A model generated the notes under the pieces. It was not told the origin of the DNA, did no database searches, and saw nothing but the letters and a program-made list of their open reading frames with translations. The position numbers and the translations under genes are program-made. Below, piece by piece: positions 3,133 through 14,640 of a stretch of 64,000 nt of DNA. This DNA is from a virus (lineage: Duplodnaviria; Caudoviricetes), in the IMG/VR virus record IMGVR_UViG_3300028557_000038, positions 2,072-66,071 of that record, one strand, 5' to 3'. Every line of letters begins with the position of its first letter. The stretch's first letter is position 1.

Positions 3133-3552
3133 CTATCGTTGTTCTGTATCAGGGGTGCTATCGCCCCCCTGTGACCCCCCATACTGAAAATGAGTGCGCT
3201 CTAAATAATCAATCGCTCTCTTCATCACTTCAACATCATCTTTCAATAAACCAATTCCACGATTACAGTTATTGCACAGATACCCACGAACTCGATTCGT
3301 TTTGTGATCGTGATCTACCGCTAATTTTTTTGTGGTGTTCTCTTCATGTATTCCACAGATCGCACACTTGTAATCTTGATCTTCTTTTATCACTAATAAT
3401 TCTTGGTAACTAATTCCAAACACTCTCGGCAATCTCTTCATTCGCTTTCGTGACGATCTACAACTCATGCAAATCTTTCGGTGATAGCCATGACCTGTTT
3501 TCTCATAACGATCGAGTGGCTTTTCTACTTGGCACTCTCGGCATTCACGCAT
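3133..3552 (-). CDS. Endonuclease VII-family protein
   Basis: CAIC...LAVDHDHKTNRVRGYLCNNCNRGIGLLKDD signature. Confidence 0.85.
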   Translation of the reverse strand: MRECRECQVEKPLDRYEKTGHGYHRKICMSCRSSRKRMKRLPRVFGISYQELLVIKEDQDYKCAICGIHEENTTKKLAVDHDHKTNRVRGYLCNNCNRGIGLLKDDVEVMKRAIDYLERTHFQYGGSQGGDSTPDTEQR

Positions 3553-3879
3553 CGAACTAATGTAATTGAACTTTCAACTATTCGCTCGGACTTACTTTCA
3601 GCACTAGCGATCTTGGCAGTTACTTCGGGCTATGTGACCCCGATCACATCTCACGCTCAAACTGCCCCGATCAGCCTCACGCTCAATCCCTCTCACAAGC
3701 CTTCTATGGGCTCTCTAACGGCTTTACCCCCAATACTGGAATAAGAACCCTATTCAGGGGGCGTTCGTGTCTCTGTGGCTGATCTGAAAGGGGCGATTTA
3801 TCTCGATCAGGATTAACAGGATTCTCGCCACGCCTGAGTAACCCCTATGAACAGGGTGTACCAACTTGTCGTACAGGTA

Positions 3880-3888
3880 TGCCATACT
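3880..3888 (+). promoter_or_regulatory. Putative extended -10 promoter for the plus-strand early transcript
   Basis: TG-C-CATACT just upstream of the structured leader. Confidence 0.4.
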
Positions 3889-3899
3889 TCTCTCAGTAG

Positions 3900-4555
3900 C
3901 GCACTCGATGTGTGACTTCCGATTTCAGAATCCTCTAGGGGCAAATCGGAAAATCATTCAAAGTGAAAAAAGCGAATCGTTAAAACTGGCAACAGGCTTT
4001 AACAATAATTTAATAATAAATAAACATCGGTGTAGCAACCTGCGAAAGATTTCCCTTAGTGGAAAGTACTTGTGTGACGATCACTTTATTTATTTATTAT
4101 TCATAGTGACTAAGAAACTGCGATTTATTTATTCGGTATTGATTACTACTAGTGATCAGTTACTAAGGCAGAAGGTGTGCGGTCGGACTATACGATGCAA
4201 TAACACCGAATTAAATAATCGATTCGATCATGCTTGCTACGGCGATGCGAATGTAACTAGTAATTACATTCAAGCGGTATTTCAAGGGCGCGGATTAACG
4301 ATTACGAAAGTGATTGTGAATAGCAGTAGGGCTTAGGGAACGAAGTGTGGAGATCGTCATGTAATTAGTGACGGAATGTTTCTACTAGTGAATGCAGGTG
4401 GTAACCAATCCAACCGATTGCACATTGAAACTAATTACAACAACAACGATCAGCACTTCTGCTTATGTGTTAATAGTGATCGATCATCGTAAACAATCAG
4501 CGAATTGTCTCGGTGATCGATCGCTATGGATACATAATCGAATGTATTCAATCCA
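3900..4555 (+). ncRNA. Large structured non-coding RNA (leader of early operon), family unassigned
   Basis: Nested stems: 3917-3925/3943-3951; CTG-GCAA-CAG at 3986-3995; ACGATTAC-GAAA-GTGATTGT at 4298-4317; 4360-4368/4431-4439; 4474-4489/4511-4526; G-U pairs and GNRA loops favour plus-strand RNA. Confidence 0.75.
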
Positions 4556-4587
4556 CTAGTAACTACAAAAGGAAACGGAAAACAAAA

Positions 4588-4830
4588 ATGACAAACAAAA
4601 CAGTAATTGGAACAACAGGTGTGTGGGATTTCTACGACACCAACACACAGAAGTATCTTTATTCATTCAAAGGATTTCTAAGTAAGAAAACACGAATTAA
4701 GTTTCATAAAAACGGATTCGTTCATGTCAATCTTTCAACAAACTTCACTCCATGTGGAGTAGCACCCACAAAACGAGTATTCAACAGAGAATTGCAAAAG
4801 GCTCTAACTACAAAATTGGAAAACAACTAA
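4588..4830 (+). CDS. Hypothetical early protein
   Basis: ATG at 4588 after AAGGAAACGGA; first gene of a tightly packed operon. Confidence 0.6.
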   Translation: MTNKTVIGTTGVWDFYDTNTQKYLYSFKGFLSKKTRIKFHKNGFVHVNLSTNFTPCGVAPTKRVFNRELQKALTTKLENN

Positions 4831-4832
4831 AA

Positions 4833-5006
4833 ATGAGACAACAAACATTCATCGATGCAAAGGGCAACATCGTTGCTCGTGGTCGTATTACAGAGATCGC
4901 TATCGATCTATTACTAAATGACGGAACTCGCTTCTACTCAACAAAGTCAGACAACTACACACTCGACTTCATCAAGAAACTAGACATTGTAAAGGTTGCT
5001 AAATAA
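4833..5006 (+). CDS. Hypothetical protein
   Basis: ATG 2 nt after previous stop. Confidence 0.55.
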   Translation: MRQQTFIDAKGNIVARGRITEIAIDLLLNDGTRFYSTKSDNYTLDFIKKLDIVKVAK

Positions 5007-5123
5007 ATGACAATCATTCTTGATTGCGCGATCTGCGCTAAACCTTCAACCGATCTGTGGTTCGTAAAACTAAATGACAAACCTGCACTTATCTGCCGAC
5101 TATGTAATGGAGAAACTAAATGA
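5007..5123 (+). CDS. Small CxxC...CxxC zinc-ribbon protein
   Basis: MTIILDCAIC...LICRLCNGETK, abutting both neighbours. Confidence 0.5.
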   Translation: MTIILDCAICAKPSTDLWFVKLNDKPALICRLCNGETK

Positions 5124-5416
5124 CAACAACACGAACATCAAACACAAAGGCTGGCGATTACATCGCAAACCGAATTGCATTCACAGGTAACAACCTCTAC
5201 GGCGTTGTTCAATCTTTTGATTCTGTTGTTTATCAAACAGGCAGACTCCCACAAGATTTTGAAACTCAACTGCGACTTGATCGACCTTCCTACATCGTCT
5301 ATTCATACGGAACACCAATCGCTTGGCATTCTAATAGCGGTTGGTTTATGCCTAACTGCAAATACTCAGTTACAACATCAAAACATCAAAACTATGTACG
5401 AAGGGCGGTTGCATAA
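5120..5416 (+). CDS. Conserved phage hypothetical (YSYGTPIAW family)
   Basis: PSYIVYSYGTPIAWH...YSVTTSKHQ; paralogue at 22573..22890. Confidence 0.75.
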   Translation: MTTTRTSNTKAGDYIANRIAFTGNNLYGVVQSFDSVVYQTGRLPQDFETQLRLDRPSYIVYSYGTPIAWHSNSGWFMPNCKYSVTTSKHQNYVRRAVA

Positions 5417-5417
5417 C

Positions 5418-5699
5418 ATGGGTCGTTTACACGCAGAGGAATTAGCAAGCGGTGAGTTTGTTATTGATCTCGAACAACAATTAGCAATTCACTTTCAATC
5501 TAATTGCTATCCACCTGTACCTCACTTCATGATCGCCGTTGCTAAAGAAGCGATCGATGCGGTTAACAACGAACAATACGATCTCGAAATTGAATTACCT
5601 GCTGGTGTTCAATTTCGTAACTCAACAACTGTTACTGCTATCAACGCCGTTGACGGCTTGTTTCTTGGTGCTTGGATTAACAGAGATGAGGATTACTAA
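5418..5699 (+). CDS. Hypothetical protein
   Basis: ATG at 5418 (MGRLHAEE), operon packing. Confidence 0.65.
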   Translation: MGRLHAEELASGEFVIDLEQQLAIHFQSNCYPPVPHFMIAVAKEAIDAVNNEQYDLEIELPAGVQFRNSTTVTAINAVDGLFLGAWINRDEDY

Positions 5700-5794
5700 A
5701 TGACGATCTTTCTTATTGCGATCATCGCTGGCGTTGTCGGTGTACTGATTGAAAACCTGTTTCACGAACTCTCACAAAAGAATCGGGGTATCTA

Positions 5795-6061
5795 GTGAGT
5801 CACTTCAATCTCGATGAACTCGGATTACTTCACACTATGGTTGAGGTGTCCTTAGAAAACGGATTAGAAAACGATGCACCTGCAAAGATCATCGATGTAC
5901 TGCGATCTGTACTTTCAAAACTACAACCGCTTATTGAAGAAGAGTGCAACATCTTCAATGAGTTTCAAGAACTAACTACACAACTCGATGATCTGCACCT
6001 TGCATCAAAGATCATTGTGCAAAACCCTGATGCAGTTACAACCGACTACCAAAACAACTAA
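5795..6061 (+). CDS. Hypothetical protein
   Basis: ORF track, operon packing. Confidence 0.55.
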   Translation: MSHFNLDELGLLHTMVEVSLENGLENDAPAKIIDVLRSVLSKLQPLIEEECNIFNEFQELTTQLDDLHLASKIIVQNPDAVTTDYQNN

Positions 6062-6083
6062 TCACCTAGAGAAACGGAATACC

Positions 6084-6968
6084 ATGTCAACAATCGAAAC
6101 TAAGTCCTTGTTCATTCCTTCATTGGAAAAGACTTCACACTACATACCACGCACCTTTACTGGTGGCGTTACAGAAGATGCCATGTACGACTTCGCACTT
6201 GCTAACAACATGAACATCTTGATTGAAGGCGATGCTGGAACTGGTAAAACTACTTCGGCACTTGCTTACGCATCAAAACGCCACATGAACTTCTTCGCCG
6301 TTCCATGTAACTCAGCGATCGACTTCACACAGTTAATCGGTGGCTTGTTCCCTGATGCTGACGGCAAACTAAAGTGGATTGACGGCGCGATCACGAAGAT
6401 CGTTCGTGAGGGTGGCGTGTTGTTGATCAACGAACTCAACAACGCCCCTAAGAACCTCTCTCAGTACCTCATGTCACTACTCGATGATCGCCGTTCAATT
6501 ACATTGATGTCACATGACAACGAAGTAATCAACGCACACCCTGATCTTCTAGTCGTTGCAGATCAGAATCCAAACTATCGTGGAACTCAATTACTTAATG
6601 AGGCGTGGAAAGATCGCTTCGAGATTAAATTGCGATTCGATTACGACACCACGATTGAAAAGAAGATCATCACATCTTCATCACTCTTGGAACTTGCTAA
6701 CGGAATGCGTTCAACATCTCGTAGAGATGAACACGCATCAGATCGTGGCACTATCTTCGAGACACCTGTATCACCACGAATCCTAAAAACATTCGAGAAG
6801 TTAGCAAAGGGCTTGTCATTCGATTTCGCTTGCGATGTGTTCGTAAACAATTTCACCGATGAAGAGCGACCTGCGGTCAAGATGCTTCTCGAAGGTACTT
6901 CATACAACATCAGAGAAGAACTCGGACTCGATGTCGATGCGATCACAACTGAATACGCACAGGCTTAA
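6084..6968 (+). CDS. MoxR/CbbQ/CobS-like AAA+ ATPase
   Basis: Walker A GDAGTGKT, Walker B-like LLINE, NPNYRGTQLLNEAWKDRF; ATG at 6084. Confidence 0.9.
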   Translation: MSTIETKSLFIPSLEKTSHYIPRTFTGGVTEDAMYDFALANNMNILIEGDAGTGKTTSALAYASKRHMNFFAVPCNSAIDFTQLIGGLFPDADGKLKWIDGAITKIVREGGVLLINELNNAPKNLSQYLMSLLDDRRSITLMSHDNEVINAHPDLLVVADQNPNYRGTQLLNEAWKDRFEIKLRFDYDTTIEKKIITSSSLLELANGMRSTSRRDEHASDRGTIFETPVSPRILKTFEKLAKGLSFDFACDVFVNNFTDEERPAVKMLLEGTSYNIREELGLDVDAITTEYAQA

Positions 6969-6970
6969 CA

Positions 6971-8944
6971 ATGTGTGCTTGCGGTAAATGTCCGTCATGC
7001 AAACGACAGAATGGAGTAAGTGTGAGTTATCACGATGCCGTTAAACAATGGGAACTAGACATACTTGGTGAAACTCGTGAGTCACTTCGATCACAAGCGA
7101 TTAAGGCAGAAGAGAAGAAACAACGACTAGAGCGATTCACACAATTCTTCGGTCGTGTTAATTCTGCATTCACTTTCCGCAAGGTAACTGTCAATGTCGA
7201 GAACTCAACAATGGAAGCACCTGCTTGGTCAGGTTCATCAACTGTCACATTCAACTCTCGTGTCATTGGTGACCTTAACGATGCTAAATCAATCGCTGGT
7301 GTTAAGGGGCTTGATCTCCACGAGATCAGCCACATTCTCTATACATCTCGTGAAGGTTCTGAAATCTTCGACTTCGTTAGCGATAACAATTACTTCATGG
7401 CATACAACGCACTTGAAGATCAGAGAATCGAAACTCTCTTTACGGCAAAGTATCCTTCAACGATCGATTGGTTTACTGCCACGATCTTGATTCACTTCGT
7501 TGATAACAAAGAGTCATTCACTAACTCTTATCCGCTATTGCGTGGTCGTAGATACCTGCCTGTCGAGTTAAGAGCGCAATCTCGTAACGCTTACCCTGAA
7601 CAAGATCAGATCGATGAAATCTGTTCAATCGTTGATCAATACCGCACTCTTATCTTTCCTGCTGATACTGAAATAGGAAAAGATTTAATTGCGCGATTTA
7701 ACGATCTATTGCCAAAGGGTGACGGCTCAGGCAACGGCACAGGTAGTGGCAACACCGCCTCTCTGAGCCCTGCTGGTGCTGGTCAAGAGGGCGATGTAGT
7801 CCTTCGCATCAATGACCCATTCGGTCATGGCAAGCGACCACAAGAGGGCTTGGAATCCTCTGCCACTTCACGACCTGTTGCACCAAAGAAACAAGAGAAA
7901 GATCGTGATCGCTCACAACAACTCGACAAAGAAGATGATGCACAACTATCTGAACAACTGAAATCAAAACCTGTTATCGATGTTGACATCAACGACATTG
8001 ATTTCGATTTCGATGATCAAGATTCAGATCAGGATTCATCTTCTAGTGAGGCTGGCGATTCTGCTGGTGATCTTGTTTATACATTGATCGAAGATTTATT
8101 AGAAAACATTCTTGATTCTAATGAAACTGAAATCAATGACATCTTGCGACAGATTGGTGGCTTACCTTCTCTTGCTACTAACAACTCCAAAGAACCTGAA
8201 CTCGATCAGTTTCGTGTTCTGCAACCTGATGCAAATACTTTCCAAGCATCGCTTTCATTCGGTCGTGAACTCGAAAGATTGAAGGCATCGTTCGACCCTG
8301 CATGGGATAAGTACGAGTCACAAGGTCGCTTGTCTGCACATCGCTACTTGCGTGGTGATGAACTCGACACAGTATTCGATCAATGGAACGAAGGTCGTGA
8401 AGATGCGACCGAGATCGAATGCGTGATCATTCTCGACAACTCAGGTTCAATGAATGGACACAAAGCCTCTTCTGCTTACAAAGCCATGTACGCAATTAAG
8501 AAGGCACTCGATCGTGTTAATGCAAACACAACTGTTATCACTTTCAACGATCATGCTAATACTCTCTATCGTGCAACTGATCGTGCTAATAACACAATTC
8601 GTGATGCTGGTTGTGGTGGTGGAACTGATGCAACTGAGGCGATCACTTACGCAACAAAGTTACTTGCTGAAACTGAAAAGCCTGTACGAATCTTCTTCGC
8701 AATTACTGACGGAGAGTGGTCAGGCAATCAAGATGCTAATCACGACACGATCAAGCGCATGGCTCGTGCTGGTGTGCTAACTGCATTCGCTTACATTCCC
8801 GAAAGCGATCAGCAGGTTGAACTAACAACAGAGAAGGCTCACTATTGCGAGATCGCTTCTGTTGTTCGTAATCCATTCGATCTTGTTTACATGGCGAAAT
8901 CAATCGTGAAGTACGCGATCTCTCGCCGTCTCGTAAACAACTAA
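6971..8944 (+). CDS. VWA-domain protein with N-terminal HExxH (CobT-like partner of the AAA+ ATPase)
   Basis: LHEISH, acidic linker, MIDAS DNSGSM, GGGT and ITDG motifs. Confidence 0.85.
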   Translation: MCACGKCPSCKRQNGVSVSYHDAVKQWELDILGETRESLRSQAIKAEEKKQRLERFTQFFGRVNSAFTFRKVTVNVENSTMEAPAWSGSSTVTFNSRVIGDLNDAKSIAGVKGLDLHEISHILYTSREGSEIFDFVSDNNYFMAYNALEDQRIETLFTAKYPSTIDWFTATILIHFVDNKESFTNSYPLLRGRRYLPVELRAQSRNAYPEQDQIDEICSIVDQYRTLIFPADTEIGKDLIARFNDLLPKGDGSGNGTGSGNTASLSPAGAGQEGDVVLRINDPFGHGKRPQEGLESSATSRPVAPKKQEKDRDRSQQLDKEDDAQLSEQLKSKPVIDVDINDIDFDFDDQDSDQDSSSSEAGDSAGDLVYTLIEDLLENILDSNETEINDILRQIGGLPSLATNNSKEPELDQFRVLQPDANTFQASLSFGRELERLKASFDPAWDKYESQGRLSAHRYLRGDELDTVFDQWNEGREDATEIECVIILDNSGSMNGHKASSAYKAMYAIKKALDRVNANTTVITFNDHANTLYRATDRANNTIRDAGCGGGTDATEAITYATKLLAETEKPVRIFFAITDGEWSGNQDANHDTIKRMARAGVLTAFAYIPESDQQVELTTEKAHYCEIASVVRNPFDLVYMAKSIVKYAISRRLVNN

Positions 8945-8946
8945 CT

Positions 8947-9005
8947 GTCACTCTCTAGGTGACTCGGTGAAGTGCGTTACTCGTGGAAGGCTGGCGCACT
9001 TCACC
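8947..9005 (+). other. Intergenic hairpins (processing or attenuation site)
   Basis: GTCAC/GTGAC hairpin, then 11-bp stem GGTGAAGTGCG (8966)/CGCACTTCACC (8995); no clean U-tract. Confidence 0.55.
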
Positions 9006-9041
9006 ACTTAACTTTCAATTACAACTAAGGAGAATAAATAA

Positions 9042-9662
9042 ATGAAATCAGCAGAACTTCAAGTCGGTGTTAGGTACGGAGTTATTCCTTCATGGGATTA
9101 TTCATCAGCAGATAAGAAAGACCCGACAAAGGTGCAACGCCGTAATGTTGCTAACTCAGCGTTAGTGTCGTTAGAAAAGTACGAATACAAGGTGTATCGA
9201 TCAGACAATCCTGATGATGCACAATTCACTCCTGCACCAAAGGGAAGTCGATCTGTCGGTTACTTGGTTCGATCTTCTGATTGGGCTGGTAACGGCTCAA
9301 CTGGTGACATCTACTGGCTCGCAAGGGCTCAGGACATCGTTGCTGAGTACGCCACTCTCGAAACTCGTTGGGTTACCGAAGAGGCAGAAGAGAAGGCTCG
9401 TGAGGCTCAATGGAAGGCAGAGCGTGAAGCCAAAGAGCAACAAGAGCGACTCGAAAGAGAGAAGGCTCAGCGCACCATTGATGCGGTTAAAGAATCTCTT
9501 CGATCACTAATCGGCAATCGCGTTGACAAGATCGACTTCGACATTCGCAATCGCAGATTAGAAAACGGAAACTATGGACTTAGTGCATCGGCACAGATCG
9601 ATGTACGAGTACTGCAATCACTTATTGAAAAGGTACTAGAGGCACAGGACAGGGTGGCGTAA
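9042..9662 (+). CDS. Hypothetical protein with coiled-coil
   Basis: 206 aa, AAGGAG RBS. Confidence 0.75.
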   Translation: MKSAELQVGVRYGVIPSWDYSSADKKDPTKVQRRNVANSALVSLEKYEYKVYRSDNPDDAQFTPAPKGSRSVGYLVRSSDWAGNGSTGDIYWLARAQDIVAEYATLETRWVTEEAEEKAREAQWKAEREAKEQQERLEREKAQRTIDAVKESLRSLIGNRVDKIDFDIRNRRLENGNYGLSASAQIDVRVLQSLIEKVLEAQDRVA

Positions 9663-10366
9663 TGAGTTACTTCTTAGATCGATTCGTAGCAATTCAAGAT
9701 AAGTATTACAACAACTATCAAGGCGGTACTCACTACTCACTATGGTGGCGAACTAAACGATTCGATCGCATGGTCGAGTTAAAACAGATGCCTAACACTT
9801 ATCAAGAGATTGAATACAAAGGGCATTCAATCATTGTGCAAGGCATTCACTACGAGTGGTGTCACATCTTCGATGTAAATGGAAACTCATTCACCCACAC
9901 ACCAAAGCCAACAGAGATCGCAACTCGTGGTGAACTGCAATTCAACACGATCTTTCTTGCATGGGCTTGGCGCATTGACGGAGTAAATACAGATAAGCCG
10001 TTGAACTGGAATAGTGAGTATGCAGTTATTTGCGGTAGTCACACATCAGACAAGATCGAGAAAACAATTAAACTCGCAAAGAAGCGCATTGATCTTGAAG
10101 CAAAGATCGTTGCGGTTCAAGATCAACTGATTGCTATGTCTAATGATCGAATGACTTACGCATCAAACATGAGTGACTTCACTCCATACAATTCTGTAAT
10201 TGGTGATGAAGTGTTTATTCAGGCGTTCGGTCGATTGCGTAAAGGGTTAATCGTTGAGACAACTGGTTCACGATTCATCGTTGCCTATGTAACGCCGTCT
10301 AATCATGACGATCTGAAATACAAAACACTTCCACTTAGTCGCTTATACCAAAAGGAGATTGCGTGA
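9662..10366 (+). CDS. Hypothetical protein
   Basis: 234 aa, TAATG coupling. Confidence 0.75.
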   Translation: MSYFLDRFVAIQDKYYNNYQGGTHYSLWWRTKRFDRMVELKQMPNTYQEIEYKGHSIIVQGIHYEWCHIFDVNGNSFTHTPKPTEIATRGELQFNTIFLAWAWRIDGVNTDKPLNWNSEYAVICGSHTSDKIEKTIKLAKKRIDLEAKIVAVQDQLIAMSNDRMTYASNMSDFTPYNSVIGDEVFIQAFGRLRKGLIVETTGSRFIVAYVTPSNHDDLKYKTLPLSRLYQKEIA

Positions 10367-10839
10367 CAACTAAGAGCAGAAAGTCTGCTAAAACTTTACA
10401 AAGAGAAGCAGACTTAGCACTTGGCGTACAACAATGCGCTAAGTGTGATCATGTGTTTCCACTAAGTAACTTTCGATCTGCAAAAACTAAATCAGGAGTT
10501 ACTTCGTACTGCAAACCTTGCGAAGAGCAATACAAGTTTGAATGGCACTTGAAGCGCAGATTAGAGATCAAGAACTGGATTTATCACCACTTGAAAACTA
10601 ATCCTTGCGTTGATTGTGGCGAGAGCGATGTACTCGCACTCGACTTCGACCATGTAAAGAGCGCAAGAAAGCGTTACAACATCGCTCATGCTTTCATGAT
10701 AAGTGGCATGACGATCAAGCGATTACAAACTGAGATCGCAAAATGCGATGTCCGTTGCGGTAAGTGCCACAGAATCCGTACACACATGGCGAGTAAGTCA
10801 TGGAAATACCGAATGGCTATTGAGAAGGGAGATGCTTAA
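10363..10839 (+). CDS. HNH endonuclease
   Basis: CVDCGE...LDFDHV...EIAKCDVRCGKCHRIRT. Confidence 0.8.
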   Translation: MTTKSRKSAKTLQREADLALGVQQCAKCDHVFPLSNFRSAKTKSGVTSYCKPCEEQYKFEWHLKRRLEIKNWIYHHLKTNPCVDCGESDVLALDFDHVKSARKRYNIAHAFMISGMTIKRLQTEIAKCDVRCGKCHRIRTHMASKSWKYRMAIEKGDA

Positions 10840-11010
10840 TTGTTAACTCGTAGAGGTTGGATAGTGCTGGTAATTGTTCCTGCATTGATCTTGGTATCGC
10901 TATTTACTTATGCAACTCGTGATGTCTGCTATGTGGGCAAGGGTGGCAACTGGTTGGGCTATGGCTCATGTACAAAGATGATCGATGAAGTGATTGGAGA
11001 AAATAAATGA
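10840..11010 (+). CDS. Small membrane protein
   Basis: TTG start, MLTRRGWIVLVIVPALILVSLF; same LTRRG+TM start as the transglycosylase. Confidence 0.55.
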   Translation: MLTRRGWIVLVIVPALILVSLFTYATRDVCYVGKGGNWLGYGSCTKMIDEVIGENK

Positions 11011-11225
11011 TCGCAACAGTTAAAGAGACGATCGAGATTCTGCAAAGAAACTACGGCAACGCACTTGATGAAACGCTGGTAGTTACTTGGTGGGATTCGA
11101 AAGATTTCGAAGAAATGACAGATGATGCAATTAACATCTGTGATGATGCACTTGATGTCTGTGTTGGTCATGTCAACGACACAGTATGGCAAAACGCAAA
11201 GATGTTAAATGAAGGAGAAGAATAA
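11007..11225 (+). CDS. Acidic hypothetical protein
   Basis: ORF track, ATGA overlap. Confidence 0.6.
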   Translation: MIATVKETIEILQRNYGNALDETLVVTWWDSKDFEEMTDDAINICDDALDVCVGHVNDTVWQNAKMLNEGEE

Positions 11226-11390
11226 ATGGGATACGCACAGATCATTCGTAGGGTAGAAGCCCACGAACTAACTAATTGCGATGATTGCGGAAATGACGAA
11301 CTTACTTCATCAGGTAAGTACATAACTGATTCAAGCGGTGAACCTGCTTTGTGGTTCTGCTTTAACTGCATTCATAAAACAACAAGATAG
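11226..11390 (+). CDS. Small zinc-ribbon protein
   Basis: CDDC...WFCFNC. Confidence 0.55.
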   Translation: MGYAQIIRRVEAHELTNCDDCGNDELTSSGKYITDSSGEPALWFCFNCIHKTTR

Positions 11391-11394
11391 ATTT

Positions 11395-11515
11395 ATCGAG
11401 CAGGGGTCAACATAGGGTTCAATCGGGTTAATTCATTTCCCGACTCCTTACCTGTGAAGGGCGATCATGATCGCATTCGATAGTTACGGCGTAGTCGTAC
11501 CTGCCCCTGCTTGAT
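11395..11515 (+). ncRNA. Multibranch structured RNA element A
   Basis: Closing stem ATCGAGCAGGGG/CCCCTGCTTGAT encloses TCGGG/CCCGA, CCTT/AAGG, GCGATC/GATCGC and TACGGC/GTCGTA hairpins. Confidence 0.6.
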
Positions 11516-11522
11516 TCCACTA

Positions 11523-11649
11523 TTGATAGAGATCATCGACACCTAGCAGATCGGCGATCTGTAAAGATGTTATGAAAATCTTGCAAGATCGCTGGTGCAA
11601 CGAAAGATCAGCGCACGACATCGTCCTACTTCTCGATGATCTCTATCAA
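11523..11649 (+). ncRNA. Multibranch structured RNA element B
   Basis: Perfect 17-bp inverted repeat TTGATAGAGATCATCGA/TCGATGATCTCTATCAA enclosing several small hairpins. Confidence 0.6.
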
Positions 11650-11677
11650 CTATTTAATTACCTAGAGAGGATTACAC

Positions 11678-11851
11678 ATGGAAACTGCACGACTATTTAC
11701 AGTAGAAGAAAAGAATCTGATACTTCTTGCACGATTTGCACATGGTGAATCGTTGCAGAGCGTTGCTGATCGATTCGGTACAACTCGTAAACTAATTCGT
11801 CAATTAGAAAGCAATTACATGAAAATAATGAAAGGGGAAGTAAATGAGTGA
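11678..11851 (+). CDS. Stand-alone sigma-70 region 4-like HTH protein
   Basis: Not in ORF track; LILLARFAHGESLQSVADRFGTTRKLIRQLE parallels sigma r4.2 (LRF..TLEEVG..FGVTRERIRQIE); GAGG RBS. Confidence 0.65.
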   Translation: METARLFTVEEKNLILLARFAHGESLQSVADRFGTTRKLIRQLESNYMKIMKGEVNE

Positions 11852-12185
11852 ACTATCATCACACCAAACTGATCTGATTAAATCGATCACGATCGCTAAT
11901 GAGTTTCTAAAGATTGTTCGTGGATTTAAGGTTGATTCAGATCGCAAAGATTCTCTTCCGCAAGAGATAAAGGAGTATCTAGCCAACGAATACTTGAACT
12001 CTGTTATGGAAGATCAGGAGATTGAACCCGAAATGCTTATTTGGGGATTCCTGCACATGATCGAGATTCTCTTGAAGTATGCAGACCTAGACCCCGAAGA
12101 TTTAACGAATGTCATGGATTCATTTGTTAAGTATGTGATTGAAAATCCTGATCAGTATTCAGATCGGAGTACAGATGAAAACTGA
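11844..12185 (+). CDS. Hypothetical protein
   Basis: ORF track, operon packing. Confidence 0.65.
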   Translation: MSELSSHQTDLIKSITIANEFLKIVRGFKVDSDRKDSLPQEIKEYLANEYLNSVMEDQEIEPEMLIWGFLHMIEILLKYADLDPEDLTNVMDSFVKYVIENPDQYSDRSTDEN

Positions 12186-12450
12186 GATCAAGAATGCACC
12201 ATGTCAATCAGCAGGTGTTGACCCTGAATTATTCTTTCCTGACCCAACAGAGTACGAAAAGATTCAACAAGCAAAGTCAATCTGTGGTCAATGTCCTGAG
12301 ATCACAAAGAATAAGTGTCTGACATTCGCACTTGAAAACGGAGTGCAGTACGGAATCTTCGGTGGATTAACAGATCACGATAGAGCCCTGCTACGCCGTA
12401 GAGAGAACCGAAAGTATCGTCAGTATGTATCGGTAGTAGGTGAGTACTAA
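12175..12450 (+). CDS. whiB: WhiB-family transcription factor
   Basis: C...DPELFFP...AKSICGQCP...CL..AL...GIFGGLT. Confidence 0.9.
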   Translation: MKTEIKNAPCQSAGVDPELFFPDPTEYEKIQQAKSICGQCPEITKNKCLTFALENGVQYGIFGGLTDHDRALLRRRENRKYRQYVSVVGEY

Positions 12451-12572
12451 TGGAGTACGCAAAAAATCAAGTAGTGATAGAAGTCAATGGTGGCGTTGCA
12501 GAAGTTACTTGTTGCCCTAGTGACATTGAAGTAGTAATTATTGATTACGACAACGACATGAATGGAGATTAA
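12450..12572 (+). CDS. Small hypothetical protein
   Basis: MEYAKNQVVIEVNGGVAEV...VIIDYD, TAATG coupling. Confidence 0.5.
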   Translation: MEYAKNQVVIEVNGGVAEVTCCPSDIEVVIIDYDNDMNGD

Positions 12573-12574
12573 GA

Positions 12575-12784
12575 ATGATGAATCCAAATGACATAGTGCT
12601 ATTCACTCGTGAAGAAGCAGATCAATTAGTTAGGAGAGTTCTTACTGATGATGAGTGGTTAAAGATCAGAGAGTGGATTACTTCTGACGATAATCTGTGG
12701 GAAGTGATCGATGAATGTATTCAGAACACAATTAGTGAGGTGATTACCGATGAAGATCAACAAGAAACTGGTGAATCGAATTGA
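12575..12784 (+). CDS. Acidic hypothetical protein
   Basis: ORF track. Confidence 0.55.
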   Translation: MMNPNDIVLFTREEADQLVRRVLTDDEWLKIREWITSDDNLWEVIDECIQNTISEVITDEDQQETGESN

Positions 12785-12972
12785 AGGACTGGCTCACTAC
12801 TACCGACATCGCACAACAAACAGGGCTAAAGATCAACACGATCTACACCTATCGAAAGCGCAACACCCTTCCCGAACCCGATCACATGATCGGCAATCGA
12901 CCACTATGGAAGCAAGAAACAATCGATGAGTGGAACACTTATCGAACAACTCAAATCGAAATGGAGAAATAA
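12781..12972 (+). CDS. AlpA/excisionase-like HTH protein
   Basis: WLTTTDIAQQTGLKINTIYTYRKRNTLPEPD..IGNRPLW. Confidence 0.8.
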   Translation: MKDWLTTTDIAQQTGLKINTIYTYRKRNTLPEPDHMIGNRPLWKQETIDEWNTYRTTQIEMEK

Positions 12973-12975
12973 TCT

Positions 12976-13203
12976 ATGGTTGCAAATGTAATCAGTAGCG
13001 AAACATCATCAACAACTCATGTGATCGAGTTTCCAATGAATGGAAACACTTTCACCGCCAAAGTATTTATTGGTGAGTGGGGCGTTGATGTCGATTGGTT
13101 TATTGGTGAGGACTTTATTGCGATCGATGATCGCTGGAAGGTTCTGCCAACTGAACTCTATGATCTCGATGATTCAGATTGGGAAGAGATTCTCTATCCA
13201 TAA
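12976..13203 (+). CDS. Acidic hypothetical protein
   Basis: ORF track; last gene before trailer and terminator. Confidence 0.6.
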   Translation: MVANVISSETSSTTHVIEFPMNGNTFTAKVFIGEWGVDVDWFIGEDFIAIDDRWKVLPTELYDLDDSDWEEILYP

Positions 13204-13249
13204 CTAACTCTTAGCCCTGATCTGGGGCGATTAGGAGTTACTTCAAGCG

Positions 13250-13284
13250 CACATAAGCAGATTCCCTAAGCCCATAGTCACTAT
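13250..13284 (+). ncRNA. Trailer complementary to the leader RNA
   Basis: 13250-13261 = revcomp 4458-4469; 13262-13273 = revcomp 4329-4340; 13275-13284 = revcomp 4103-4112. Confidence 0.7.
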
Positions 13285-13286
13285 TC

Positions 13287-13321
13287 GCCCCTAGCCCCCG
13301 ATCGGGCTAGGGGCTTTTTTT
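13287..13321 (+). terminator. Intrinsic terminator of early operon
   Basis: GCCCCTAGCCC-ccgatc-GGGCTAGGGGC followed by T7. Confidence 0.9.
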
Positions 13322-13330
13322 GCATTCGAA

Positions 13331-13362
13331 GTTACTGGCGAGTAACATTACTCATCAGTAAC
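13331..13362. promoter_or_regulatory. Tandem inverted-repeat sites upstream of recombinase
   Basis: GTTACTggcgAGTAAC followed directly by ATTACTcatcAGTAAC (TTACT-N4-AGTAA twice). Confidence 0.55.
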
Positions 13363-13377
13363 ATGAAAGGGGGAATC

Positions 13378-14640
13378 ATGGCTTATGTCGTAAAGCGTGG
13401 AGATAGGTTTACAGGCTATTACAGAAAGGGCGGAAAACGCCTCTCAGCAGGTACATGGGGCTCGGAGATCGATGCCATGTATCACGCCTCAAAAGCAGAG
13501 GTATCGGGTGTCAGCGAGCCTTCTAGGGCTGTATTTACCCTATCGACCTACATCGATTCATGGTTACCGACCGCCGATCTCATGCCGATCACTCGCAAGG
13601 GCTATCGGTCAGTACTCGATCGCTATGTGATTCCGACTCTTGGAACTCGCAAAGTAACTTCGATCGATAGACGGGCGATTCAAGAGTTACTTCAAGCCCT
13701 CAGGGGTCAGGGGGTGGGGTCTGCCACCCTCAATCAGATCAAGGCATCGCTAGGGTCTGCCCTGTCTCAGTTAGTCGATACAGGAGAATTGACCGAGAAC
13801 CCCACTCATGGAATTAAGATCAAGGCGAAACATTCTGACATCTCGAATGTCGTAGAGCCCGAAGAGTTTAAGGCGATTATTCAGCACCTACCGACCGAAG
13901 GGGCTCAGTTATTCGCCCGATTCTTAGTCGCATCAGGTTGCCGATTCGGGGAAGCCACCGAGATCAGGGTCAAGGACATCAACCTAAAGACAGGGGAAGT
14001 CTATGTCCAAAGGCGAGTCAGCGATCTAGGTACAAGCCATACCAGCAGGTTTCTAGTCGTAGAAGCCACAAAGTCAGGGCAAAAGCGAAGCCTTATGTTA
14101 AGCAAAGCCCTACTACAAGAGATTCAGGGCTATGTCATAGCAAAAGCCCTATCAAAAGATGACCTGTTGTTCCCAAGAACGATCATCTTAACAACAGGTA
14201 AACTAAAGACTTCTCGTGGAGAAATGTCTAAGCGACCATTCGCCCAAGACGGAAAACTGTTCCAGCATGGAACTCTGTACGCCTATACACATGGGCGTTG
14301 CCGATGTGAGGCTTGTCGAGAGTCGGTGCGAAAGCACAGGCAAAAGACAAAGCCATACCAAAAGCAACAGAGATTCATCGACCATACGAGTCACCTACCA
14401 CGAGATGTATGGAGAACTACATGGAACAAGGCAATAGCCAAGTCAGGCATCGGTTGGAGTCCTAGAACCCATGATCTCAGACACGCTAACGCTACCCAAC
14501 TTCTAAAAAGTGGGGTAGATGTGCATGAGGTCAAGGAACGCTTAGGGCATCAGTCGATAAAGACGACAGAGCGATACCTACATCGCCTTCGTCACAACCA
14601 GTCAAAGGCATCAGAAAGTGTCAATGACTTTTTGGAGTGA
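13378..14640 (+). CDS. int: Tyrosine recombinase/integrase with Cys-rich insertion
   Basis: GCRFGE (R), TKSG (K), HDLRH, LGH, TTERY; insertion HGTLYAYTHGRCRCEACR. Confidence 0.9.
   Translation: MAYVVKRGDRFTGYYRKGGKRLSAGTWGSEIDAMYHASKAEVSGVSEPSRAVFTLSTYIDSWLPTADLMPITRKGYRSVLDRYVIPTLGTRKVTSIDRRAIQELLQALRGQGVGSATLNQIKASLGSALSQLVDTGELTENPTHGIKIKAKHSDISNVVEPEEFKAIIQHLPTEGAQLFARFLVASGCRFGEATEIRVKDINLKTGEVYVQRRVSDLGTSHTSRFLVVEATKSGQKRSLMLSKALLQEIQGYVIAKALSKDDLLFPRTIILTTGKLKTSRGEMSKRPFAQDGKLFQHGTLYAYTHGRCRCEACRESVRKHRQKTKPYQKQQRFIDHTSHLPRDVWRTTWNKAIAKSGIGWSPRTHDLRHANATQLLKSGVDVHEVKERLGHQSIKTTERYLHRLRHNQSKASESVNDFLE

What the first reader, a model, noticed from the sequence alone, without database searches (positions are those of the whole stretch)
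3900..13321. Split RNA clasp: structured leader pairs with a trailer 8.8 kb away, looping out the whole early operon
Seen directly: the 35 nt just before the operon terminator are built from three perfect reverse complements of separate leader segments. CACATAAGCAGA (13250-13261) matches 4458-4469, TTCCCTAAGCCC (13262-13273) matches 4329-4340, and TAGTCACTAT (13275-13284) matches 4103-4112. The order is strictly nested, and the leader segments lie largely between its local hairpin domains; for example GAAGTG/CACTTC (4342/4454) would complete a three-way junction. In addition, leader AAAAAAGCGAAT (3966-3977) can pair with ATTCGC (13283-13288) or with the terminator U-tract (13313-13320). Inference: one large RNA fold is completed only when the ~9.4-kb transcript is finished, with about 20 genes inserted in one loop. 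Possible roles: end protection or circularisation, rRNA-like leader-trailer processing, a permuted/split ribozyme, or control of readthrough into the recombinase. I know of no described phage system with this layout.
Basis: partly seen in the sequence, partly recalled or inferred. Interest (0 to 1): 0.93.

Follow-up and report, generated by a model that had tools for sequence, protein, structure and literature searches.

The report
Leader-trailer RNA helix closing phage operon
The untranslated head and the last 35 bases of a 9-kb early gene block of an uncultured lake phage can pair as RNA, and related phages have kept this pairing through matching mutations on both sides, so it is a real, selected long-range RNA contact of a kind so far known mainly from ribosomal RNA operons.

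Summary
Window 13250-13261, 13262-13273 and 13275-13284 are perfect reverse complements of 4458-4469, 4329-4340 and 4103-4112, in nested order, ending 2 nt before the only strong terminator of the block (13287-13314).

It is not chance. I examined 22 related phage loci that hold both ends. 20 keep a leader/trailer duplex of about 27-38 bp at the same place. These fall into eight lineages (integrase identity 96% down to 61%) with different sequences, so the changes are compensatory. Two loci of one lineage have lost it.

In five lineages the own trailer beats all 150 shuffled trailers (z 4.5-10). In two lineages the score is weak.

The leader domains inserted between the pairing segments also covary. 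G-U pairs favour the + strand. All 28 loci tested show the operon in one orientation, which argues against DNA inversion by the adjacent integrase.

Best reading: an rRNA-style leader-trailer helix that closes the early-operon mRNA, probably as a processing or stability stalk. The function is not shown. Action in cis versus in trans is unresolved.

An earlier follow-up of this scan (e1-6072196) reported the same RNA family on another genome. I found no published phage example in my searches.

The parts
3898..4587 (+). About 690-nt untranslated, highly structured leader of the early operon. The 5' end is inferred, not mapped.
   Evidence: No plausible gene lies between the minus-strand endonuclease VII gene (3133-3552) and the first + gene with a ribosome-binding site at 4588. 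-10-like hexamers sit 6-9 nt before the conserved AGCGCAC / AGGCACAC block in relatives (my reading; inference). No Rfam family matches.
3921..3949 (+). Hairpin 'HL0': covarying stem and a conserved 17-nt loop (YAGAAWCCYCTAGGGGC).
   Evidence: The loop is conserved in lineages A, C, F, G, H and H2. The stem changes by compensatory substitutions. G.U appears in L012, L005 and L015 where the window has G-C, which favours + strand RNA.
4103..4112 (+). Leader strand of long-range helix a.
   Evidence: Perfect complement of 13275-13284. The same column shows U-A, A-U and G-C in the window, the L022 record and L029.
4117..4326 (+). Leader domain D1, inserted between helices a and b. Closed by CUGC.../...GCAG.
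   Evidence: Two-strand folds. The flanks AAGAAACTGCGAT and GAATAGCAGTA recur in lineages A, B, C, D and E.
4329..4340 (+). Leader strand of helix b.
   Evidence: Perfect complement of 13262-13273. The sequence is conserved in A, B and C. It is different but complementary in L027 and the L071 record, and G.U-rich in L029.
4342..4459 (+). Leader domain D2, inserted between helices b and c. Closed flush by GAAGTG/CACTTC.
   Evidence: In an RNAalifold consensus of 7 sequences, 9 of 16 predicted pairs show compensatory change. The closing stem is AGTTAC/GTAACT in the L022 record.
4458..4470 (+). Leader strand of helix c.
   Evidence: Perfect complement of 13250-13261 plus a terminal U.G. Several positions differ, with matching trailer changes, in the L022 record.
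4588..13203 (+). Early operon enclosed by the helix. It includes an AAA ATPase, a VWA protein, an HNH endonuclease, WhiB and an HTH_17 (excisionase-type) protein, among others.
   Evidence: Genes are collinear and on the + strand in 28 of 28 relatives. The simple terminator scan lists two other + strand candidates inside this span (7976-8002, 8051-8068), both with only 3 G-C pairs and lying within the VWA gene; none compares with 13287-13314.
13205..13240 (+). Trailer hairpin H1, directly after the last stop codon. Stem type AACTAACT.../...AGTTACTT.
   Evidence: fold. Equivalent hairpins occur in the other lineages (my reading).
13250..13284 (+). Trailer strand of the clasp (c', b', a').
   Evidence: 33 of 35 positions are invariant in 17 lineage-A sequences (16 distinct), while the flanks vary.
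13287..13321 (+). Intrinsic terminator of the early operon (stem-loop 13287-13314 plus T-run).
13318..13362 (+). Probable integrase promoter with two 16-bp palindromic operator-like sites (TTACT-N-AGTAA at 13332 and 13348).
   Evidence: A TTGAC-like hexamer after the T-run and the palindromes are conserved across lineages (my reading). The function is inferred.
13363..14640 (+). Tyrosine integrase.
   Evidence: Pfam PF00589 E 7.7e-25, PHROG 1 E 3.2e-50.

Best explanation
The leader and the 35-nt trailer are the two strands of a leader-trailer RNA helix that closes the early-operon transcript on itself.

Proposed mechanism:
1. As RNA polymerase reaches the end of the about 9.3-kb block, the trailer emerges and pairs with three single-stranded linkers of the already folded leader.
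2. The pairing stacks into a roughly 34-bp rod, with domains D1 and D2 protruding. The rod abuts the terminator hairpin.
3. In other lineages the same rod is a plain 27-38-bp duplex.

I think the most likely job is that of the leader-trailer helices of rRNA precursors. It would be a double-stranded stalk that marks the ends of the transcript body for a host double-strand RNase such as RNase III, or that shields both ends. Either way it sets the lifetime of the early message and separates it from the integrase message downstream.

Shown: the complementarity, its conservation by compensatory change, RNA-type covariation of the leader, and constant operon orientation.

Inferred: that both strands lie on one transcript, that they pair in vivo, and the processing or stability role.
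For: Complementarity and fold:
- The complementarity is exact.
- All three helices appear in the minimum-energy two-strand fold, with a 33 kcal/mol gain. Gains in relatives are 18-40 kcal/mol.

Conservation with different sequences, in 20 of 22 loci that hold both ends:
- A: window, L005, L009, L012, L015, L118, with 10-12 + 12-13 + 12-13 bp (L009's held DNA stops short of helix a, so only b and c were seen).
- B: L022 record, 11 + 13 + 11-12 bp.
- C: L025 record, 11 + 11 + 7-8 bp.
- D: L027, 14 + 13 bp.
- E: L029, 13 + 9 + 12 bp.
- F: six loci, 7 + 17 bp.
- H: L071 record, 21 + 17 bp.
- H2: L106, L117, G007, 9 + 18-20 bp.

Statistics:
- Own trailer against 150 shuffled trailers gave 0 of 150 as good in the window (z 6.8), L022 (5.7), L027 (6.6), L029 (4.5) and L071 (10.0).
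- Foreign leader/trailer combinations score at noise level.
- In lineage A the trailer strand is invariant at 33 of 35 positions in 17 sequences, while the flanks vary.

RNA on the + strand:
- At least six G.U positions fall in helices or at their ends, against two A.C positions.
- The HL0 stem shows G-C changing to G.U.
- D2 has 9 of 16 pairs with compensatory change.

One transcription unit is plausible: the only strong terminator between 4500 and 13400 is the one after the trailer.

Lineage H2 keeps the helix without a strong terminator. That fits a stalk inside a longer transcript, as in rRNA precursors.

Precedent: pre-16S rRNA has a long leader-trailer helix interrupted by leader helices and cut by RNase III (PMC10250234, passages read).
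Against: - There are no expression data. Contigs of four RNA libraries cover the region but cannot show transcript ends, and they show no leader-trailer joint.
- Two lineages score weakly with my spliced-alignment measure: L025 record z 1.9, L036 z 1.4.
- Lineage F carries an internal A.C mismatch in all six loci.
- Lineage G (L055, L074) has the leader but no convincing trailer strand. The helix is therefore dispensable in at least one lineage.
- No rRNA-type boxA is conserved in the leaders. A boxA-like GGCTTTAACAA occurs only in lineages A and B (the consensus is recalled from memory).
- Neither this phage nor a complete relative encodes RNase III. Cleavage would depend on an unknown host.
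- Covariation cannot tell pairing in cis from pairing in trans.
Confidence: 0.55

Rival explanations
1. The trailer acts in trans. The module H1 hairpin, 35-nt single-stranded seed and terminator hairpin (about 13205-13321) would be released from the 3' end of the early message as a small RNA. It would then pair with the leaders of newly made early transcripts. That gives a delayed negative or positive feedback, timed by how long it takes to transcribe the operon.
For: The trailer is built like a 3'-UTR-derived small RNA: a 5' hairpin, an unpaired seed and an intrinsic terminator. Such RNAs cut from the end of a long operon mRNA are known, for example SdhX (PMC6393394, abstract in the listing). 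Covariation fits trans pairing as well as cis pairing.
Against: No promoter-like site was found in 12800-13500. There is no room for one between the stop codon at 13203 and H1. Lineage H2 keeps a 27-pair helix but has no strong terminator to make a defined small-RNA 3' end. The seed has no other long match in the window.
Confidence: 0.2
2. The clasp controls the terminator in front of the integrase gene. The three helices would hold the leader next to the nascent terminator. Leader elements (the HL0 loop CTAGGGGC and the A-run) would then capture the 5' arm and the U-run of the terminator, giving antitermination. Alternatively the clasp helps the hairpin form. Either way, readthrough into int would depend on where the transcript started.
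For: Helix a' ends 1-9 nt before the terminator stem in all terminator-bearing lineages. The HL0 loop is complementary to 8-12 nt of the 5' arm of the terminator in lineages A, C, F and G. In the minimum-energy two-strand fold of the L025 record the terminator is replaced by pairing with the leader 5' region.
Against: The HL0 loop does not change when the terminator stem does: G.U in F, an A.C mismatch in the L071 record. In 5 of the 6 two-strand folds of terminator-bearing loci the terminator hairpin stays intact; the seventh fold, G007, has no such terminator. Lineage H2 keeps both HL0 and the clasp but has no such terminator. The integrase has its own promoter-like region with operator-like palindromes.
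Confidence: 0.1
3. The complementarity is a DNA feature: inverted repeats that serve the adjacent tyrosine integrase to invert the 9-kb segment, or the terminal repeats of a mobile cassette.
For: A recombinase gene sits 78 bp downstream of the trailer. Inverted repeats that co-change in both copies are also expected for recombination sites. In lineages F and H2 the leader copy is contiguous.
Against: In lineages A-E and H the leader copy is split by conserved structured domains of 110-380 nt. No recombination site looks like that. The repeats have no internal dyad. Mismatches are mostly G.U-type on one strand. The operon is collinear and in the same orientation in 28 of 28 loci. No strand-switch joints appeared in four contig sets.
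Confidence: 0.03

Closest known systems
Leader-trailer helices of bacterial rRNA operons (pre-16S and pre-23S processing stalks; PMC10250234, passages read)
   Same: Complementary sequences flank a long transcript body on the same strand. The helix is tens of base pairs long. In the classical pre-16S model it is interrupted by local leader helices. The flanks evolve fast but stay complementary. The helix sits inside or at the end of a longer primary transcript.
   Different: Here the enclosed body is about 8.6 kb of protein-coding genes that will be translated, not a stable RNA. No conserved boxA/boxB/boxC set was found. RNase III cutting is untested. The element belongs to a phage.
5'UTR-3'UTR pairing within one bacterial mRNA: icaR of Staphylococcus aureus (PMC3868564, listing and abstract) and hbs of Bacillus subtilis (PMC5737220, listing and abstract)
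   Same: The untranslated ends of one message pair with each other and thereby affect RNase access and message life.
   Different: Those are short, single-gene messages. In icaR the 3' UTR covers the ribosome-binding site. Here the innermost helix ends about 105 nt before the first ribosome-binding site, the message is polycistronic and about 9.4 kb, and the pairing uses three linkers of a multi-domain leader.
sib retroregulation of int in phage lambda (recalled, not checked in a paper here)
   Same: An RNA duplex beside the int/xis/att region of a temperate-type phage would decide the fate of a message from its 3' side through RNase III.
   Different: sib is a local hairpin completed by readthrough. 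Here one strand lies 9 kb upstream. The position of attP is unknown.
Genome cyclisation sequences of flaviviruses (recalled, not checked in a paper here)
   Same: Several short complementary segments, separated by local stem-loops at the 5' end, pair with the 3' end across about 10 kb of coding RNA.
   Different: That is an RNA virus genome, where cyclisation serves the replicase. Here it is a DNA phage message.
Large phage-associated structured RNAs in Rfam (such as GOLLD and ROOL)
   Same: A large, multi-domain non-coding RNA in a phage genome.
   Different: No Rfam model matches at gathering threshold. The best sub-threshold hits have E 0.67 or worse.

Membership tests
rRNA-operon-type leader-trailer helix (processing stalk) | Complementary strands lie upstream and downstream of the transcript body, on the same strand and in nested order. 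| tested here: met
rRNA-operon-type leader-trailer helix (processing stalk) | The helix is kept by compensatory change among relatives. | tested here: met
   Eight lineages have different sequences. z is 4.5-10 in five of them and weak in two.
rRNA-operon-type leader-trailer helix (processing stalk) | boxB-boxA-boxC antitermination signals in the leader. | tested here: not met
   Only a boxA-like GGCTTTAACAA at 3995-4005, in lineages A and B. It is absent from C, F, G, H and H2. The consensus is recalled from memory.
rRNA-operon-type leader-trailer helix (processing stalk) | The enclosed body is a stable RNA. | tested here: not met
   The enclosed body is protein-coding genes. There is no tRNA or rRNA.
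rRNA-operon-type leader-trailer helix (processing stalk) | Cleavage of the helix by RNase III. | not testable with these tools
   Helix length (27-38 bp) is compatible. There is no phage RNase III gene in G000 or G007.
5'UTR-3'UTR interaction of icaR type | The 3' UTR pairs with the ribosome-binding site of the same mRNA. | tested here: not met
   Helix c ends at 4470. The ribosome-binding site and start codon are at about 4575-4590.
Invertible DNA segment with flanking inverted repeats and an adjacent recombinase | Contiguous inverted core sites, and both orientations present in populations. | tested here: not met
   The leader copy is split by 110-380-nt domains in six lineages. 0 of 28 loci are inverted. 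There are no strand-switch joints.
3'-UTR-derived small RNA | A stable short RNA ending at the operon terminator that carries a seed for a target. | tested here: inconclusive
   The architecture fits. Lineage H2 lacks the terminator. No read-level RNA data were available.
Any Rfam family | Score at or above the family's gathering threshold. | tested here: not met
   0 hits in the whole window. Only chance-level hits with the E-value threshold in 3400-4700.

The most novel reading that the evidence does not exclude
The clasp is an operon-completion and genome-state sensor that works like an inverted lambda sib. Only when polymerase has finished the whole early block on circular phage DNA does the trailer meet the leader. 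It then forms a double-stranded stalk that a host RNase cuts. Decay starts from the 3' end through the excisionase-like gene. This times the shut-off of early genes and biases Int over Xis. If attP lies between the last gene and the trailer, the prophage would lack the clasp, and Xis would be spared on induction.
Probability: 0.12. Interest if true: 0.88.

Novelty: new variant of a known kind. Interest (0 to 1): 0.75.

Why it matters
Long-range helices that bracket a whole transcript are textbook for rRNA. 5'-3' UTR pairing is known for a few short bacterial messages. Here a helix of about 35 bp, kept by compensatory change, brackets some 20 translated genes over 9 kb in a widespread group of lake phages.

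That would extend the principle to polycistronic phage messages. It would give a concrete, mutable element for asking how phages time and bound early gene expression at the RNA level. It also defines a new large structured leader RNA family (HL0, D1, D2) that is absent from Rfam.

The element is compact enough to be tested in a plasmid-borne mini-operon.

Tried and rejected
- Known RNA family: Rfam at gathering threshold on the whole window and at E-value threshold on 3400-4700 gave nothing credible. There are no tRNA or tmRNA genes.
- Phage database: blastn of the leader and of the trailer/int region against 50,697 phage records gave no match.
- Prophage or attB search: the integrase alone and a 10-sequence integrase alignment against 185,579 species genomes gave no relative. 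The one hit was a 44%-identical C-terminal fragment in an Oscillospiraceae MAG. The host, attP and attB therefore remain unknown, and both scans of that collection are spent.
- RNA libraries: 24 runs hold parts of the stretch, all as contigs. Laying the contigs of four RNA-labelled runs showed relatives of the phage but no leader-trailer, circular or strand-switch joint. Contigs cannot show transcript ends, and DNA carry-over cannot be excluded, so this says nothing for or against pairing.
- HL0 loop as a fourth long-range helix or antiterminator: the complementarity exists but shows no covariation and is absent in H2. I kept it only as a minor rival.
- A-run (3966-3973) pairing with the terminator T-run: it appears in 2 of 7 two-strand folds, with no convincing covariation.
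- Strand by wobble pairs: this favours the + strand but rests on few events. One internal A.C in lineage F points the other way.
- Other operon-scale stalks in this window: none.
- More lineages: a trailer pattern of the L053-type lineage found only short contigs plus one chance hit, L092. That lineage's leader could not be paired with its trailer.
- HL0 pattern scan: 59 contigs matched. It added L106, L117, L118 and G007. The hits in G006, G008 and G009 lie inside coding sequence and are unrelated.
- Phage-encoded RNase III: none in G000 or in the complete relative G007.
- Literature: three full-text searches found the rRNA leader-trailer helix, icaR, hbs and 3'-end small RNAs, but no phage mRNA operon bracketed in this way. 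Supplementary figures of PMC10250234, which hold the pre-16S models, were not seen.

Full report
WHAT IS THERE

The window is part of a 66-kb IMG/VR viral contig, about 66% complete. The stretch is held by many lake-water metagenome runs. It carries WhiB, an AAA ATPase with a VWA partner, HNH endonucleases and a tyrosine integrase. It is probably a phage of freshwater Actinobacteriota; that is an inference from WhiB and the habitat.

A minus-strand endonuclease VII gene ends at 3552. The first plus-strand gene with a ribosome-binding site starts at 4588. About 8.6 kb of tightly packed plus-strand genes follow, up to 13203. After them come a hairpin (H1, 13205-13240), the 35-nt trailer (13250-13284) and a strong terminator (13287-13314 plus a T-run). 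Next is a promoter-like region with two 16-bp palindromes, then the integrase at 13363-14640. The terminator at 13287-13314 is the only strong one between 4500 and 13400; the scan's two other + strand candidates have 3 G-C pairs each and lie inside the VWA gene.

THE OBSERVATION

All three reverse complements are exactly as stated and are nested. Folding the leader (3895-4600) and trailer (13204-13325) as two strands gives a minimum-energy structure that contains all three helices. D1 (4117-4326) and D2 (4342-4459) are closed flush against them. The energy is -263.0 kcal/mol against -230.3 for the separate folds.

Chance inside one window should not be overstated. Single 10-12-mers are frequent. 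Looser triples of 10-mers totalling 30-32 nt arose in 13 of 100 shuffles. None of the 100 reached 34 nt. It is the only such triple in the window.

RELATIVES

A scan of IMG/VR with the integrase returned 90 relatives, of which 80 were kept. I extended four records upstream. A scan with the conserved leader hairpin motif added four loci, one from a complete 100-kb genome. 22 loci hold both the leader and the end of the operon.

20 of the 22 show a leader/trailer duplex at the same position, in eight lineages:

| Lineage | Loci | Integrase identity | Duplex |
|---|---|---|---|
| A | window, L005, L009, L012, L015, L118 | 90-96% | 10-12 + 12-13 + 12-13 bp |
| B | L022 record | 73% | 11 + 13 + 11-12 bp |
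| C | L025 record | 72% | 11 + 11 + 7-8 bp |
| D | L027 | 69% | 14 + 13 bp |
| E | L029 | 68% | 13 + about 9 + 12 bp |
| F | L032, L033, L036, L038, L042, L051 | 61% | 7 + 17 bp, one internal A.C |
| H | L071 record | 61% | 21 + 17 bp |
| H2 | L106, L117, G007 | 62-64% | 9 + 18-20 bp |

In L009 the held DNA stops short of helix a, so only helices b and c were seen there. The sequences differ between lineages. For example, one column of helix a is U-A in the window, A-U in the L022 record and G-C in L029, and helix c differs at several positions with matching trailer changes.

The enclosed proteins have diverged to 48-94% (AAA) and 51-86% (VWA) identity. The complementarity has therefore been maintained across deep divergence.

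Two loci of lineage G (L055, L074) have the leader but no convincing partner. A more distant integrase lineage (L077, L078) has neither trailer nor terminator upstream of int.

STATISTICS

I used a spliced-alignment score that allows long gaps on the leader side. The own trailer beat all 150 shuffled trailers in the window (z 6.8), L022 (5.7), L027 (6.6), L029 (4.5) and L071 (10.0). The score was not significant in the L025 record (z 1.9, 7 of 150), L036 (z 1.4, 11 of 150) and L055 (z 2.0, 4 of 150). Foreign leader/trailer combinations fall in the noise.

The measure is permissive, so short or mismatched helices score poorly. The 17-nt match with one mismatch in lineage F, and the two adjacent 11-mers in lineage C, are at the expected position but are weaker evidence.

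Within lineage A, 33 of the 35 trailer positions are invariant in 17 sequences (16 distinct), whereas the H1 loop and the spacers vary. In L118 a trailer change lengthens helix a to 12 bp.

RNA RATHER THAN DNA, AND WHICH STRAND

- In six lineages the leader strand is split by conserved domains of 110-380 nt, while the trailer strand is continuous.
- The closing stems of these domains sit flush with the long-range helices and covary: GAAGTG/CACTTC in the window against AGTTAC/GTAACT in the L022 record.
- The D2 core has 9 of 16 consensus pairs with compensatory change.
- Non-Watson-Crick positions in or at the ends of the long-range helices are mostly G.U on the + strand: L025 a and c, L029 b, L071 a, L032 against L036, L106/L117/G007, and the window's c end. 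Two are A.C.
- The conserved hairpin HL0 shows G-C changing to G.U on the + strand.
- The operon is collinear and in the same orientation in 28 of 28 loci with at least 5 kb upstream. No strand-switch joint appeared in four contig sets. Inversion by the neighbouring integrase is therefore not supported.

WHAT IT PROBABLY DOES

The architecture is that of the leader-trailer helices of rRNA precursors. Those are complementary flanks that form helices of 27-44 bp. In the classical pre-16S model the helix is interrupted by local leader helices. It is cut by RNase III and matters beyond cleavage (PMC10250234, passages read).

Lineage H2 is informative. It keeps a plain helix of 27 pairs, but my scan finds no strong terminator between the operon and int. 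The helix therefore does not need an adjacent terminator, and there it would lie inside a longer transcript, as an rRNA stalk does.

I favour a cis-acting stalk that bounds the early message and sets its processing or stability. In the other lineages the terminator hairpin would stack on it. This role is inferred, not shown.

Rivals:
- A trans-acting 3'-end small RNA (H1, seed, terminator) that feeds back on new leaders. Covariation cannot exclude it, but H2 lacks a terminator and there is no promoter.
- Leader-dependent control of the terminator before int. The HL0 loop is complementary to the terminator's 5' arm, but it does not covary with it and persists where the terminator is absent.

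LIMITS

No read-level RNA data were available. The host, attP and attB are unknown. The transcription start is inferred from -10-like hexamers. Neither this phage nor the complete relative encodes RNase III.

COMPARISON AND NOVELTY

Three literature searches returned the rRNA helix, icaR (PMC3868564) and hbs (PMC5737220) 5'/3'-UTR pairing, and 3'-end small RNAs. They returned no phage protein-coding operon bracketed in this way.

Notes of this scan report the same RNA family on another genome (e1-6072196) and similar brackets around other phage operons (e1-5966355, e1-5345313, e1-5933347). These are AI notes, not independent evidence. I reached the same reading from my own calls before seeing them.

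I class it as a new variant of a known kind: the leader-trailer helix principle applied to a translated, polycistronic phage message, with a new multi-domain leader RNA.

Noticed in passing
window 3921-3949; same element in L012, L015, L032, L055, L071 record, G007: A hairpin (HL0) about 25-45 nt after the inferred transcription start. It has a covarying stem and a 17-nt loop (YAGAAWCCYCTAGGGGC) conserved across lineages whose leaders are otherwise diverged. The loop core CCYCTAGGGG is nearly palindromic and matches the 3' arm of the terminator. Its function is unknown (protein site, kissing loop?).
   Followed up: partly
window 4375-4440 (D2 core); L012, L015, L022, L027, L029, L086: A conserved D2 core (…TGCAG-N-GTAAYCAATC…GCAC…) with covarying stems. 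The same motif occurs downstream of the contiguous clasp in lineage F. It is a candidate ligand- or protein-binding module of a leader RNA family absent from Rfam.
   Followed up: partly
window 13318-13362 and homologous positions in about 70 loci: A TTGAC-like hexamer sits immediately after the terminator T-run. Two or three 16-bp palindromes (TTACT-N-AGTAA type) overlap a -10-like TAACAT before the integrase start. This is probably an operator-controlled int promoter.
   Followed up: no
window 13363-14640; alignment A1: The integrase carries an invariant His/Cys cluster (H302, H310, C313, C315, C318 in window numbering) inside the catalytic half, conserved in all 10 aligned lineages. It looks like a zinc-binding insertion.
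   Followed up: no
window 4583-4828: The first gene of the operon is missing in relatives. Contigs of two RNA-library runs join 4582 directly to 4829. The protein was found in only 1 of 5 related records.
   Followed up: partly
window about 13100-13210; lineage-A loci: The last gene before the trailer exists in at least two unrelated versions within lineage A. The switch point lies at the stop codon / TAACTAACT start of hairpin H1, so this is a mosaic boundary.
   Followed up: no
L106, L117, L162 (G007): This lineage has no strong terminator between the early operon and int. The trailer strand of the clasp can alternatively form a small local hairpin.
   Followed up: partly
window 11391-11677: A 290-nt gap inside the operon holds structured elements, including a 24-nt, 88% complementary inverted repeat at 11523-11546/11626-11649. 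It is followed by a small protein with a sigma-70 region 4-like helix-turn-helix (11678-11851).
   Followed up: no
whole integrase family: No relative of this integrase was found in one genome each of 185,579 bacterial and archaeal species, although it is common in viral contigs (90 hits). Integration into a host genome is therefore undocumented.
   Followed up: partly
window 12781-12972: A 63-aa protein matches the excisionase-type HTH_17 domain just below the curated cut-off (26.6 against 27 bits, E 7.4e-6). It lies two genes before the integrase, on the other side of the trailer and terminator.
   Followed up: partly
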